IMG/VR virus record: IMGVR_UViG_2713896905_000007
Location: 1-17,799 of that record
DNA: 17,799 nt
Origin: a virus
Taxonomy: Duplodnaviria; Heunggongvirae; Uroviricota; Caudoviricetes
Reading direction: 5' to 3' (one strand)
How positions within the stretch are numbered: position 1 is the first letter of the stretch; every line of letters starts with the position of its first letter. The position numbers and the translations under genes were made by a program. The notes under the pieces were generated by a model. That model had not been told where the DNA came from. It was given only the letters and a program-made list of their open reading frames with translations, and ran no database searches. Below, one piece after another: positions 6,361 through 13,396 of this stretch.

Positions 6361-6621
6361 TCACTCATCTTCAAAAGCAGAAAAACCAGCCTTAATCCCA
6401 GCTTCTTTCAGAGACGGCAACGATGTGACAAATTCATTTGCACGCAAAATAAAACCATCCGTCACAAGCCCATCCACCAAATGAATTAACGCAGCTCCAC
6501 TCTTCCTTTGTTGAGACTGTAAACATTTAATACGGCAGTGGCTGACAATAGCGCCATTCTCAACGCGCACAGTATAGAGGCCATCTTCACTAAAAATTTC
6601 ACGTAATTCTTCGATTTTCAT
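6361..6621 (-). CDS. Hypothetical small protein (86 aa) in the position of rem of Qin
   Basis: ATG at 6621 with GGAAGG upstream. Located immediately downstream of hok as rem is in Qin. Identity with Rem is not verified. Confidence 0.55.
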   Translation of the reverse strand: MKIEELREIFSEDGLYTVRVENGAIVSHCRIKCLQSQQRKSGAALIHLVDGLVTDGFILRANEFVTSLPSLKEAGIKAGFSAFEDE

Positions 6622-6703
6622 CAACAGAATCCTTCCAGATAAATAGCACTCCCCTGTTTGGGGTCCATCCCTCTTCTCCCTGCGCGCTACTTAAGTATTT
6701 TTG

Positions 6704-6733
6704 ATTCTATTCCGGCTCCGTCCAGAACTTCAA
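6704..6733 (-). promoter_or_regulatory. Candidate sigma70 promoter for the rem-like and nin genes
   Basis: Minus strand TTGAAG followed by TAGAAT at 17-18 nt spacing, located just downstream of the hok terminator. Sequence-only prediction. Confidence 0.3.
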
Positions 6734-6743
6734 ACGCGTTGAA

Positions 6744-6771
6744 AATAAAAACAAAAACCCGCCGAAGCGGG
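6744..6771 (-). terminator. Rho-independent terminator ending the hok mRNA
   Basis: Minus strand CCCGC-TTCG-GCGGG followed by TTTTTGTTTTTATTTT. Confidence 0.75.
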
Positions 6772-6841
6772 TTAAGTGCGGGTGCGTTGAGGATGCCTGA
6801 CACATCAGAGGTGGCGAGGGATTTCTCCCCCGCCTGGTCTC

Positions 6842-6997
6842 TTACTCCTCAGGTTCGTAAGCTGTGAAGACAGCGACCTCCGTCTGGCCGGTTCGGATTC
6901 GTACCTCGCAGAGGTCTTTCCTCGTTACCAGTGCCGTCACTATGACGGTTAAACAGATGACGATCAGGGCGATTAACATCGCCTTTTGCTGCTTCAT
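6842..6997 (-). CDS. hokD: Hok-family type I toxin (HokD/RelF-like), 51 aa
   Basis: MKQQKAMLIALIVICLTVIVTALVTRKDLCEVRIRTGQTEVAVFTAYEPEE matches recalled HokD/RelF. Single TM segment and conserved Cys. Confidence 0.9.
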   Translation of the reverse strand: MKQQKAMLIALIVICLTVIVTALVTRKDLCEVRIRTGQTEVAVFTAYEPEE

Positions 6998-7054
6998 AGC
7001 CTGCTTCTCCTTGACCTTTCGGTCCGTAAGAGGCAATCTATATGTGACGAGCAT
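6842..7054 (-). CDS. mok-like overlapping reading frame (70 aa) that includes hok
   Basis: ATG at 7054 with GAGG 8 nt upstream. The frame reads through into hok, as mok does in hok/sok loci. Confidence 0.5.
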   Translation of the reverse strand: MLVTYRLPLTDRKVKEKQAMKQQKAMLIALIVICLTVIVTALVTRKDLCEVRIRTGQTEVAVFTAYEPEE

Positions 7055-7140
7055 ATAGGGGCCTCACTTCGATTTATAGTCGGGTGGGGCTTTTATCTAT
7101 CTGCCGTTGGTGTTCATGCCTGAGGCAGATAGCCTCAAGC

Positions 7141-7168
7141 ACCCGCAGCAATTCTACTTAACTCTCCT
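7141..7168 (-). promoter_or_regulatory. Candidate hok mRNA promoter
   Basis: Minus strand TTGCGG-16 nt-TAGAAT. The predicted transcription start coincides with the 5' element (plus 7122-7135) that is complementary to the 3' element at plus 6778-6792. Confidence 0.4.
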
Positions 7169-7265
7169 TTTCCCGCAAATCGTTTTTATCCCCAGCGGCA
7201 AATCGAATACACCACCAGCGCCACCGCCATTGCAATTCCCATCGTTGCGAATGCTTCAGGCCAGG

Positions 7266-7985
7266 TCATTGACTCACCTCCAGCGGCGGTTCTGGTAGCG
7301 GCATCCAGTGAGTTGCTTGCCCAAGGTCATTACCCGGACTAACTGCTATACCTCCGCGTCGGAACGTGTCTCCGATATAGCGTGCGGAATATATTAATGG
7401 CCCAGCCTCGCTGTCGATATTCACCGAAATAAGCACGTTCTGGCTCTTTTCAGGCATTCGCTCACTGCAGCTTATCCAACTATCCGGAGTTCCCGGAGAG
7501 TTGCCCGACAGCTCGTTCAACTTGTAAGTCTGGCTTACAGGTTCGTCACCATTAAGCATGGCGTTGCTCCGCTCTATACCATCCAGCGCGATTCGCAGTG
7601 CCTGAATTGTGGTAGTGCTATCGTTTGGGGCTATTCCATATCGCTCGAATACAGCGATATGACCGCGCATAATCTCAGGTGTAAGTTCTTTGTAAGCATA
7701 AGCAAGAGACGCTGATGCATTATCCGGCACAACCGACGCAGGCGCGGCAGCATAAACAGGAATAACGTCCGCTTGCTCTTTATTGCTTTCATCCGTTAAA
7801 GCCCAGAATAATTTCCCGGCCGGATGTTTGAAAATATAAGCAATTGGTTCTGCTTCCAGAGATGCCAGAGCAATTTTGAATAACTCACCCTCTACTCGTG
7901 CCACCCCTGAATTGGGGTGGCATTTCGCAATCGCTATTTTTAATTTAGCTTCTTCGATTAATTGCTCTTTTGTTAATTCAGTCAT
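7266..7985 (-). CDS. Phage protein with C-terminal DUF551-like domain, 239 aa
   Basis: The C-terminal segment (WISCSERMPEKSQNVLISV...THWMPLPEPP) resembles the DUF551 domain common in nin regions of enterobacterial prophages. ATG at 7985. Confidence 0.6.
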   Translation of the reverse strand: MTELTKEQLIEEAKLKIAIAKCHPNSGVARVEGELFKIALASLEAEPIAYIFKHPAGKLFWALTDESNKEQADVIPVYAAAPASVVPDNASASLAYAYKELTPEIMRGHIAVFERYGIAPNDSTTTIQALRIALDGIERSNAMLNGDEPVSQTYKLNELSGNSPGTPDSWISCSERMPEKSQNVLISVNIDSEAGPLIYSARYIGDTFRRGGIAVSPGNDLGQATHWMPLPEPPLEVSQ

Positions 7986-13338: not shown

Positions 13339-13396
13339 TTTCTGGTGACGTTTGGCGGTATCAGTTTTACTACGTGACTGCTCTGCCGCCATTTTT
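13339..13396 (+). ncRNA. dicF: DicF small regulatory RNA with terminator-like 3' hairpin and U-tract
   Basis: tttctggtgacgtttggcggtatcagttttactacgtgactgctctgccgcc followed by attttt is near-identical to my recollection of E. coli DicF (about 53 nt). Lies downstream of the ydfABC-like genes as in Qin. Confidence 0.8.

What the first reader, a model, noticed from the sequence alone, without database searches (positions are those of the whole stretch)
6744..7170. Apparently intact hok/mok type I toxin locus with 5'-3' mRNA complementarity
The 51-aa Hok toxin is nested in a 70-aa mok frame with its own ribosome-binding site. The predicted mRNA 5' end (plus 7122-7135, cctcaagcacccgc) is reverse-complementary to a segment just upstream of the terminator (plus 6778-6792, gcgggtgcgttgagg), matching 14 of 15 positions with one bulge. 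This mirrors the tac/fbi fold-back that keeps full-length hok mRNA inert. Predicted promoter (TTGCGG-16-TAGAAT) to terminator spans about 390 nt, close to the roughly 400-nt hok mRNA of plasmid R1. A 9-bp inverted repeat (7086-7094 / 7113-7121) lies in the leader. Unlike K-12 hokD, which is recalled as sitting in the relBE operon, this copy looks like a self-contained module in the nin region. An antisense Sok-like RNA would be expected on the plus strand around 7011-7096 (possible -35 TTGACC at 7011-7016, U-tract near 7091-7096), but I could not define a convincing -10 element or terminator hairpin.
Basis: partly seen in the sequence, partly recalled or inferred. Interest (0 to 1): 0.5.

Follow-up and report, generated by a model that had tools for sequence, protein, structure and literature searches.

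The report
Intact prophage hok/mok/sok toxin-antitoxin module
This is an ordinary, structurally complete copy of the well-known hok/sok RNA-controlled toxin-antitoxin module (the intact form of E. coli hokD) in a Qin-like lambdoid prophage; relatives are annotated in most E. coli genomes and a close one has been characterised experimentally.

Summary
Window 6746-7178 (minus strand) holds a complete hok/mok/sok type I toxin-antitoxin module. It has a 51-aa Hok (Pfam HOK_GEF, DNA-identical to K-12 HokD) nested in frame in a 70-aa mok ORF. The conserved promoter is TTGCGG-16-TAGAAT, the mRNA is about 395 nt, and 5' tac pairs with 3' fbi. Folding also shows the ucb/mok-SD sequestering hairpin and the alternative tac/ucb stem once fbi is removed.

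K-12 hokD is the same locus at the same prophage position, with everything upstream of the hok SD replaced by relBE.

Relatives are annotated as hokD in most E. coli genomes. The 86.6%-identical hokW-sokW of prophage Sp5 is experimentally characterised. Nothing here is new in kind.

One side result: the Sok seed/target segment is the hypervariable part of otherwise near-identical loci, and co-resident copies have non-cross-pairing seeds.

The parts
7173..7178 (-). hok/mok mRNA promoter -35 (TTGCGG)
   Evidence: TTGC/TTGG is kept 16-17 nt upstream of the -10 in most (not all) variants whose upstream flanks differ. Only 3 of 6 match the consensus, so the generic scan did not call it.
7151..7156 (-). 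hok/mok mRNA promoter -10 (TAGAAT), 16-nt spacer
   Evidence: TAGAAT is kept in most of the homologous loci listed. It is identical in Sp5 hokW.
6746..7144 (-). Full-length hok mRNA, about 395 nt. The +1 at G7144 is inferred by homology to the R1 hok mRNA 5' end and to the start of the Rfam model. Cross-genus homology begins at about this position.
7133..7144 (-). tac element (GGGUGCUUGAGG), the 5' partner of fbi in the full-length mRNA and of ucb in the truncated mRNA
7117..7141 (-). Candidate metastable 5' hairpin of the nascent transcript (UGCUUGAGGC / GCCUCAGGCA, 5-nt loop)
   Evidence: the repeat finder I4, 10 nt, 90% complementary. This is the role described for R1 in PMC9841398; assigning it here is inference.
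7097..7132 (-). Upper hairpin of the tac-stem-loop.
   Evidence: Alignment pairs 13-20/58-65 are kept in 31 sequences, with A-U to U-A changes.
7084..7090 (-). ucb / anti-SD (GCCCCAC). It pairs with the mok SD in the full-length fold and with tac in the fbi-less fold.
   Evidence: Pairs 72-84/113-125 show compensatory changes.
7062..7065 (-). mok Shine-Dalgarno (GAGG), 7 nt upstream of the mok AUG
   Evidence: Read from the sequence. Sequestered in the full-length fold and free in the centroid of the truncated fold.
6842..7054 (-). mok ORF, 70 aa, in frame with hok and sharing its stop codon
   Evidence: Same geometry as K-12 mokC/hokC and Sp5 mokW/hokW. The start is kept 56-58 nt upstream of the hok AUG in 103 of 103 unique loci, while the frame varies.
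7038..7058 (-). Sok target hairpin around the mok AUG (CUAUAUG-CUCGUCA-CAUAUAG). The loop carries a YUNR-type CUCG.
   Evidence: The U-turn role is inference from R1 literature that I recall.
7007..7010 (-). hok Shine-Dalgarno (GGAG)
   Evidence: The K-12 hokD homology breakpoint lies just upstream, at about 7011.
6842..6997 (-). hok toxin ORF, 51 aa (MKQQKAMLIALIVICLTVIVTALVTRKDLCEVRIRTGQTEVAVFTAYEPEE)
   Evidence: Pfam HOK_GEF E=1.2e-23. The CDS is DNA-identical to K-12 hokD.
6813..6834 (-). 3' UTR stem-loop (GGCGGGGGA-GAAA-UCCCUCGCC), the likely protective 3' end of the processed, translatable mRNA
   Evidence: Pairs 361-368/380-387 are kept with compensatory changes. The processing itself is inferred from R1.
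6778..6792 (-). fbi element (CCUCAACGCACCCGC), with one bulged C
6746..6773 (-). Intrinsic terminator of the hok mRNA (AACCCGC-UUCG-GCGGGUU plus a U-run)
7011..7016 (+). Sok promoter -35 (TTGACC)
   Evidence: TTGACC or TTGCCT in 100 of the 103 unique homologs.
7034..7039 (+). Sok promoter -10 (CAATCT), 17-nt spacer. It aligns with CACTCT of the annotated K-12 sokC and with TAACCT/TAATCT of most homologs.
7046..7096 (+). Predicted Sok antisense RNA, 49-55 nt. It has a 9-nt single-stranded 5' seed (GACGAGCAU...), then hairpin 7055-7096 followed by UUUUAU. It starts 8 nt inside mok, as the annotated sokC and sokW do.
   Evidence: Fold -21.1 kcal/mol, z = -4.9. Homology to sokC and sokW. Transcription was not tested.

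Best explanation
This is a structurally intact hok/mok/sok type I toxin-antitoxin module of the hokD/hokW lineage, carried in the nin-equivalent region of a Qin/PPompW-like lambdoid prophage.

Proposed mechanism (the sequence elements are shown here; their behaviour is inferred from plasmid R1 and Sp5):
1. The minus strand gives a stable mRNA of about 395 nt.
2. While it is being made, tac is held in a local hairpin.
3. In the full-length RNA, 5' tac pairs with 3' fbi, and ucb sequesters the mok SD. The RNA is then neither translated nor bound by Sok.
4. Slow 3' trimming removes fbi. tac then pairs with ucb, the mok SD opens, and ribosomes translating mok run across the hok SD and allow Hok synthesis.
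5. The plus strand constitutively makes a short, unstable Sok RNA. Its 5' seed pairs with the mok start region of the trimmed mRNA, which blocks mok translation and leads to cleavage of the duplex.
6. When Sok supply stops (loss of the element, a transcription block, or prophage induction), the stored mRNA yields Hok, which damages the inner membrane.
For: - Hok domain, and a CDS identical to K-12 hokD.
- Rfam RF01794 at 105.5 bits.
- Full-length minimum-free-energy fold: tac/fbi pairing plus ucb/SD-mok, z = -7.9. Fold without fbi: the tac/ucb stem forms, and the SD is free in the centroid. This matches the R1 model summarised in PMC9841398.
- tac/fbi is predicted de novo by RNAalifold on 31 sequences. 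Pair 4/427 is U-A in 21, C-G in 8, U-G in 1 and unpaired in 1. The named structure gives 90% paired cells against 39-65% when partners are slid.
- Every homolog keeps a tac/fbi duplex of -17 to -27 kcal/mol.
- The mok start is conserved 56-58 nt upstream of hok in 103 of 103 loci although the frame varies. This fits a role for translation of mok rather than for the peptide.
- The Sok promoter and terminator are defined and conserved.
- The hok promoter -10 is kept in most homologs despite different upstream flanks.
- The locus type is annotated hokD in E. coli: 4716 of 5426 complete genomes match, and 3804 cover at least 80% of the query.
- The 86.6%-identical Sp5 hokW-sokW has annotated mokW, hokW and sokW. 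It was shown to be a working type I TA that raises phage release after mitomycin C (PMC8621323).
- Overexpressed HokD peptide is reported to be toxic (bioRxiv 10.1101/2025.08.07.668861).
Against: - No expression data exist for this copy.
- Both promoters are sub-consensus. The hok -35 matches 3 of 6, and the Sok -10 CAATCT lacks the first T. Neither was called by the generic scan.
- Chromosomal hokA, hokB and hokC loci are reported not to mediate post-segregational killing (cited), so intact structure does not prove activity.
- The predicted Sok (49-55 nt) is shorter than the annotated SokC (59 nt) and SokW (71 nt).
- The +1 positions and the 3' processing are inferred by homology only.
Confidence: 0.9

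Rival explanations
1. The module looks intact but is functionally silent, a tolerated relic like the K-12 chromosomal hok loci. Either promoter could be too weak, or processing and activation may not occur, so it neither kills nor stabilises anything.
For: - The sub-consensus promoters were not called by the scan.
- The Sok -10 variant CAATCT is found in only 7 of 103 unique homologs.
- Chromosomal hokA, hokB and hokC are reported inactive for post-segregational killing.
Against: - All regulatory elements are kept, with compensatory changes, across genera.
- The hok CDS is 99.4% conserved among 69 unique loci.
- The close relative hokW-sokW is active from its native prophage.
- A dead Sok promoter paired with a live hok promoter should be lethal.
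Confidence: 0.2
2. The molecular mechanism is the same, but the main biological role is not post-segregational maintenance. Instead it would be an induction-triggered aid to host lysis and phage release, as shown for hokW-sokW. Sok disappears on induction and Hok weakens the inner membrane before holin and endolysin act.
For: - PMC8621323: SokW is lost and HokW is made after mitomycin C in a RecA-dependent way, and a deletion halves Sp5 release.
- The promoter, tac and fbi are identical between the window and Sp5.
Against: - The window locus sits in the nin-equivalent region, not near the right end of the genome as in Sp5.
- The Sok region differs.
- Whether this prophage is inducible is unknown.
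- The effect reported for Sp5 is only two-fold.
Confidence: 0.35
3. The 5'-3' complementarity is coincidental and the mRNA does not fold back.
For: None beyond the fact that short GC-rich matches can arise by chance.
Against: - z = -7.9 for the whole fold.
- Only 7 of 7108 windows match the cognate duplex energy; these are expected to include overlapping windows at fbi and at tac's own complement, though their positions were not listed.
- Compensatory changes and conservation appear in all 31 homologs, including the R1-type locus.
Confidence: 0.02

Closest known systems
hokW-mokW-sokW of Stx2 prophage Sp5 / VT2-Sakai / 933W (AP000422; Takada et al. 2021, PMC8621323)
   Same: - 86.6% DNA identity over the module.
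- Identical promoter, tac and fbi.
- mok is in frame and 70 aa, and Sok starts 8 nt inside mok.
- The host element is a lambdoid prophage.
- The Mok/Hok protein is 83% identical, and the Hok part is identical except at its C-terminal end.
   Different: - The Sok hairpin is 21 nt shorter here.
- The Sok 5' seed/target segment differs. The window seed binds its own target at -25.1 kcal/mol against -7.4 for hokW.
- The terminator after fbi is different.
- The position in the prophage differs: nin-equivalent region here, near the right end in Sp5.
E. coli K-12 hokD (relF) in cryptic prophage Qin
   Same: - The hok CDS is identical, and the DNA is near-identical from the hok SD through fbi, the terminator and beyond (3 mismatches in about 310 nt).
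- Same neighbours on the downstream side (rem, ydfU, Q).
   Different: - K-12 lacks the promoter, tac, ucb, the mok start and sok. relBE abuts the hok SD instead, and there is no Rfam hit.
- The window copy is the complete, self-contained form.
E. coli K-12 hokC/mokC/sokC (gef)
   Same: - mok is nested in frame with a shared stop codon.
- The annotated 59-nt sokC has a -10 (CACTCT) that aligns with the window's CAATCT, and the same TTGACC -35.
- The leader is about 84% identical.
   Different: - It is a different Hok paralog, on the chromosome and not in a prophage, with IS186 next to it in K-12.
- The Sok seed is only partly cross-complementary (-14.5 kcal/mol against -25.1 for the cognate pair).
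hok/mok/sok (parB) of plasmid R1, the paradigm
   Same: - All the named elements (tac, fbi, ucb, mok SD, the Sok promoter inside mok, the Sok terminator opposite the ucb/SD hairpin) align column by column.
- The transcript is also about 400 nt.
   Different: - As I recall the sequence, R1 mok is in the +1 frame relative to hok. In the R1-type locus fetched here (L004) it reads in frame.
- R1 has a longer first hairpin (an 18-nt insert).
- Its tac is GGCGCUU and pairs with fbi without a bulge.
- It is plasmid-borne, and post-segregational killing has been demonstrated.

Membership tests
[quoted passage not shown] | Small hydrophobic Hok/Gef toxin ORF of about 50 aa | tested here: met
   51 aa, Pfam PF01848 E=1.2e-23, 82.9 bits against a cutoff of 22
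[quoted passage not shown] | Overlapping upstream mok reading frame with its own SD, whose translation crosses the hok SD | tested here: met
   70-aa ORF 6842-7054 with GAGG 7 nt upstream. The start is conserved 56-58 nt upstream of hok in 103 of 103 loci. The coupling itself was not tested.
[quoted passage not shown] | 5' tac / 3' fbi end-pairing of the full-length mRNA | tested here: met
   Minimum-free-energy fold, RNAalifold and pair counts with a compensatory change, duplex energies, inverted repeat
[quoted passage not shown] | ucb that sequesters the mok SD in the closed form and pairs with tac in the open (3'-trimmed) form | tested here: met
   Both conformations are recovered by folding with and without fbi. 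This is a computational test only.
[quoted passage not shown] | cis-encoded antisense Sok gene overlapping the mok translation-initiation region, with its own promoter and terminator | tested here: met
   TTGACC-17-CAATCT, and a hairpin at -21.1 kcal/mol (z = -4.9) followed by UUUUAU. Aligns with the annotated sokC and sokW.
[quoted passage not shown] | Match to the curated RNA model of the hok leader / sok region (Rfam RF01794) | tested here: met
   105.5 bits against a gathering score of 59, full length 1-157. The model matches the hok-sense strand.
[quoted passage not shown] | Both RNAs are transcribed, the hok mRNA is stable and slowly 3'-processed, and Sok is unstable | not testable with these tools
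   Needs Northern blots, RNA-seq or a rifampicin chase
[quoted passage not shown] | Hok is toxic and Sok neutralises it | not testable with these tools
   Indirect support only: overexpressed HokD is reported to be toxic, and HokW/SokW has been demonstrated.
hokD ortholog (Qin-type prophage position) | Same peptide and same flanking genes as K-12 hokD | tested here: met
   Identical CDS and 3' flank. rem-like ORF, DUF968/ydfU, RusA and Q lie downstream.

The most novel reading that the evidence does not exclude
The Sok seed / mok-start target segment may be a swappable specificity cassette.
- Among 69 unique loci that encode the identical HokD peptide, the hok CDS is 99.4% pairwise identical. 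The 23-nt Sok-target segment is only 70.6% identical and has 16 alleles.
- Co-resident copies in the three multi-copy genomes examined carry mutually non-pairing seeds (cognate -21 to -24 kcal/mol, non-cognate -3 to -13).
- The window carries one of the rarer alleles, and its Sok hairpin resembles the Photorhabdus and Citrobacter forms.

On this reading, diversifying selection or recombination keeps the several prophage-borne hok/sok modules in one cell orthogonal, so that each prophage polices only its own loss or induction. The observation itself is shown. The selective explanation is inference, and similar ideas exist for other antisense systems.
Probability: 0.35. Interest if true: 0.3.

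Novelty: already known. Interest (0 to 1): 0.1.

Why it matters
It matters little beyond correct annotation. The copy shows what the truncated K-12 hokD looked like before relBE replaced its leader. It also adds one more prophage-borne hok/sok module of a type already catalogued (T1TAdb and the Hok catalogue preprint) and characterised (hokW-sokW). Three practical points follow:
- Genome annotations list only the hok or mok CDS, so the Sok RNA (about 7046-7096, plus strand) and the mRNA elements should be added.
- Rfam's 'sok' model reports the hok-sense strand, which can mislead strand assignment.
- The hypervariable Sok seed suggests a testable orthogonality among co-resident copies.

Tried and rejected
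- The generic promoter/terminator scan called neither the hok nor the Sok promoter, because both are sub-consensus. It did find the hok terminator. The promoters had to be supported by conservation and by homology to annotated sokC and sokW.
- A cognate versus non-cognate comparison of tac/fbi duplex energies was barely discriminating (-21.3 against -19.9 kcal/mol; 16 of 31 sequences better than heterologous partners), because tac is almost invariant. I relied on the specific compensatory pair and the slide control instead.
- In alignment A2 the distal half of the tac/fbi helix is out of register for Photorhabdus, which has no bulge. This inflates the 'not paired' counts for pairs 7-12. Per-sequence duplex folding shows that they do pair.
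- I looked for the source genome. No complete E. coli genome covers more than 68% of the window, at about 92% identity. The prophage is a mosaic and the host was not identified.
- An 8-nt perfect inverted repeat flanks the module (6745-6752 / 7182-7189). I judged it to be at chance level (about 1.5 expected in 450 nt) and did not pursue it.
- I did not use the capped large protein, structure or metagenome searches. The identity of the locus was already unambiguous.

Full report
**1. Observation**

On the minus strand of the window there is a 51-aa ORF (6842-6997) nested in frame in a 70-aa ORF (6842-7054). Both match Pfam HOK_GEF (E about 1e-23).

The 5' element CCTCAAGCACCCGC is at plus 7133-7146, not 7122-7135. 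The 9-bp leader inverted repeat is at 7097-7105 / 7124-7132, not 7086-7094 / 7113-7121.

The following are as stated:
- fbi at 6778-6792;
- the promoter TTGCGG (7173-7178) - 16 nt - TAGAAT (7151-7156);
- the terminator (6756-6773 plus a T-run);
- plus-strand TTGACC (7011-7016) and TTTTAT (7091-7096).

The -35 lies just outside the stated end of 7170.

**2. Is the fold-back real?**

The minimum-free-energy fold of the predicted transcript (7144..6750, 395 nt) pairs nt 1-12 (GGGUGCUUGAGG) with CCUCA-[C]-ACGCACCC near the 3' end. Its z-score is -7.9 against 100 dinucleotide shuffles. The repeat finder independently lists the perfect 9-nt arm 6777-6785 / 7139-7147.

Across all 7108 overlapping 30-nt windows of the 17.8-kb sequence, both strands, only 7 bind tac as strongly as the cognate -21.5 kcal/mol. 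Their positions were not listed; overlapping windows at fbi and at tac's own complement are expected to be among them.

For comparative evidence I fetched 133 related loci. In distant genera (Photorhabdus, Kluyvera, Erwinia, Citrobacter) the DNA homology to the window starts at about the inferred +1 and ends at or shortly before fbi.

I aligned 31 diverse sequences, including an R1-type plasmid locus. On this alignment:
- RNAalifold predicts the end-pairing de novo (columns 1-6 with 425-430).
- Pair 4/427 is U-A in 21 sequences, C-G in 8, U-G in 1, and unpaired in 1.
- The named 12-bp helix gives 90% paired cells, against 39-65% when partners are slid by 1-3 columns.
- Every homolog keeps a duplex of -17 to -27 kcal/mol. 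Further compensatory changes appear at positions 11 and 12, for example GAGA/UCUC in Photorhabdus and Kluyvera and GAAG/CUUC in Citrobacter.

**3. The conformational switch**

In the full-length fold, ucb (GCCCCAC, 7084-7090) pairs with the mok SD (GUGAGGC, 7061-7067). When the 3' end including fbi is removed (7144..6796), the minimum-free-energy fold instead pairs tac with ucb. The mok SD is then unpaired in the centroid structure.

A third local hairpin could be the co-transcriptional metastable structure (UGCUUGAGGC/GCCUCAGGCA, 7117-7141). This is the scheme established for plasmid R1 and summarised in PMC9841398.

Shown here: the sequence elements, their predicted alternative pairings, and their conservation or covariation. 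Inferred: the 3' processing, its kinetics, and the translational consequences.

**4. mok**

The mok AUG lies 57 nt upstream of the hok AUG, in the same frame. This also holds for the annotated K-12 mokC/hokC (shared stop) and for Sp5 mokW/hokW.

In 103 unique homologs the mok start is always 56-58 nt upstream of hok, but the frame varies:
- in frame in 84;
- +1 in 7;
- -1 in 12, giving a 19-codon ORF that ends on the hok AUG.

This fits the published conclusion that translation of mok, not the Mok peptide, is what matters.

**5. Sok**

The plus strand carries TTGACC (7011-7016), a 17-nt spacer and CAATCT (7034-7039). This -10 aligns with CACTCT of the annotated K-12 sokC and with TAACCT/TAATCT in most homologs.

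The annotated sokC and sokW both begin 8 nt inside their mok ORFs. That places the window's Sok +1 at G7046.

From there the RNA has a 9-nt single-stranded 5' end. It then folds into a hairpin (7055-7096, -21.1 kcal/mol, z = -4.9) that ends in UUUUAU. The predicted length is 49-55 nt, shorter than SokC (59 nt) or SokW (71 nt).

The Sok 5' end is complementary to a hairpin around the mok AUG (7038-7058), whose loop CUCGUCA contains a YUNR-type motif. The U-turn role is my recollection of the R1 literature, not something tested here.

One caveat on the Rfam test. RF01794 ('sok') matches the minus strand, that is the hok-sense strand, from +1 to the hok AUG (157 positions). The same holds for the R1-type locus. 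The hit therefore certifies the hok leader/sok region rather than the Sok strand.

**6. What it is relative to known loci**

*K-12 hokD.* It is identical in the CDS and nearly identical (3 mismatches) from the hok SD (window about 7011) through fbi, the terminator and the downstream flank. Everything upstream is replaced by the 3' end of relE, and no Rfam match is found there. The window copy is therefore the complete form of the same locus, at the same prophage position. The order in the window, upstream to downstream on the coding (minus) strand, is:
- Cro-like and YdaT genes, a DnaC-like gene, DUF1627, DUF977 and DUF551;
- hok;
- a rem-like ORF, DUF968/ydfU, RusA and Q.

DicF lies further along.

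*Spread.* Full-length relatives are very common. 4716 of 5426 complete E. coli genomes match, and 3804 cover at least 80% of the 501-nt query. They are annotated 'type I toxin-antitoxin system toxin HokD', or 'gef: phage maintenance protein' in PPompW prophages at 98% identity.

*Sp5 hokW.* The hokW-mokW-sokW locus of Stx2 prophage Sp5/VT2-Sakai is 86.6% identical, with identical promoter, tac and fbi. That locus has been shown to be a working type I TA. Its Sok disappears and its Hok is made after mitomycin C in a RecA-dependent way, and its deletion halves phage release (PMC8621323).

*Catalogue.* A recent catalogue reports that hok is enriched in prophages and that overexpressed HokD is toxic (bioRxiv 10.1101/2025.08.07.668861).

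**7. Mechanism and role**

I commit to the canonical hok/sok mechanism (confidence 0.9 that the module is structurally a complete member; about 0.6-0.7 that it is active in its host).

The biological role is less certain. Three roles are compatible with it: maintenance of the prophage by post-segregational killing, an induction-triggered aid to lysis as for hokW, or exclusion of other phages as reported for R1 hok/sok (cited). The hokW data make the lysis-aid role a serious candidate.

**8. Side result**

Among 69 unique loci that encode the identical HokD peptide, pairwise identity is:
- 99.4% in the CDS;
- 97% in ucb and fbi;
- 94% in the tac-stem;
- only 70.6% in the 23-nt Sok seed/target segment, which has 16 alleles.

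The window's Sok seed binds its own target at -25.1 kcal/mol, against -7.4 for hokW and -14.5 for hokC. In three genomes with two or three full-length copies, cognate seed/target pairs score -21 to -24 kcal/mol and non-cognate pairs -3 to -13. This suggests orthogonal specificity alleles among co-resident prophage modules. It is an inference from a small sample, and it is not conceptually new for antisense control systems.

**9. Verdict**

The locus is a canonical, already known and widely annotated kind of element, so its interest is low.

Noticed in passing
window 7186-7269 (-): Unannotated 27-aa hydrophobic ORF (MTWPEAFATMGIAMAVALVVYSICRWG). Its ATG overlaps the stop of the upstream DUF551 gene (ATGA), and it ends 8 nt before the hok -35. 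tblastn gave 31 hits in the fetched loci. The ORF is open in all but one or two of them, mostly with conservative substitutions. It is not annotated in the two records inspected. It may be a real small membrane protein.
   Followed up: partly
window 6995-7144 (-); L004 332-503 (+): Rfam RF01794 'sok antitoxin' matches the hok-mRNA sense strand from +1 to the hok AUG (157 positions), not the antisense Sok strand, both here and in an R1-type plasmid locus. Strand calls from this model are the opposite of the real Sok.
   Followed up: yes
window 6854-6860 (-), hok codon Tyr47: UUACGAA, which I recall as the sequence of the tRNA-Arg(ACG) anticodon loop recognised by TadA, covers the Tyr47 codon. 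UACGAA is invariant and the first U nearly invariant in the 31 aligned homologs, including the R1-type locus. The Hok catalogue preprint states that hokC, hokD and hokE mRNAs undergo A-to-I editing that recodes Tyr to Cys at this position. The local fold is weak.
   Followed up: partly
window 7038-7060 (-) and loci L005-L091: The Sok seed/target segment is the hypervariable part of otherwise near-identical hokD-type loci (70.6% against 99.4% identity; 16 alleles). Co-resident copies in three genomes have non-cross-pairing seeds.
   Followed up: partly
window 7061-7090 compared with L120 (Photorhabdus), L130 (Citrobacter) and L053 (E. coli prophage): The window's short Sok hairpin / ucb-SD hairpin lacks the 21-22-nt insert present in most E. 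coli prophage copies and in Sp5. It is nearly identical to the Photorhabdus and Citrobacter forms, so the leader is mosaic.
   Followed up: no
window 13340-13391 (+): DicF antisense sRNA, Rfam RF00039, 70.2 bits against a gathering score of 48, full length. It fits a Qin/PPompW-like prophage with dicA/dicC-type immunity genes.
   Followed up: no
window 6704-6733 (-): This was the only consensus-grade sigma-70 match in the region (TTGAAG-18-TAGAAT, 9 of 12). It lies just downstream of the hok terminator and about 80 nt upstream of the 87-aa rem-like ORF 6361-6624, which has no Pfam match.
   Followed up: no
window 6745-6752 / 7182-7189: A perfect 8-nt inverted repeat (ATAAAAAC/GTTTTTAT) brackets the whole module. 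The upstream limit of homology with Sp5 hokW lies close to its upstream arm. It is probably chance (about 1.5 expected).
   Followed up: no
plasmid hits H43-H65 and phage P1 hit H123: Many E. coli and Salmonella plasmids of about 90-100 kb (and some larger ones), and phage P1-type genomes, carry a full-length relative at about 81% identity that is annotated hokD on the plasmids. This hok lineage is therefore shared between lambdoid prophages and what may be P1-like phage-plasmids.
   Followed up: no
whole window: No complete E. coli genome in the collection covers more than 68% of the window, at about 92% identity. The prophage is a mosaic not represented as a whole. The best single-locus match was a viral contig at 99.6% identity (L073).
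   Followed up: no
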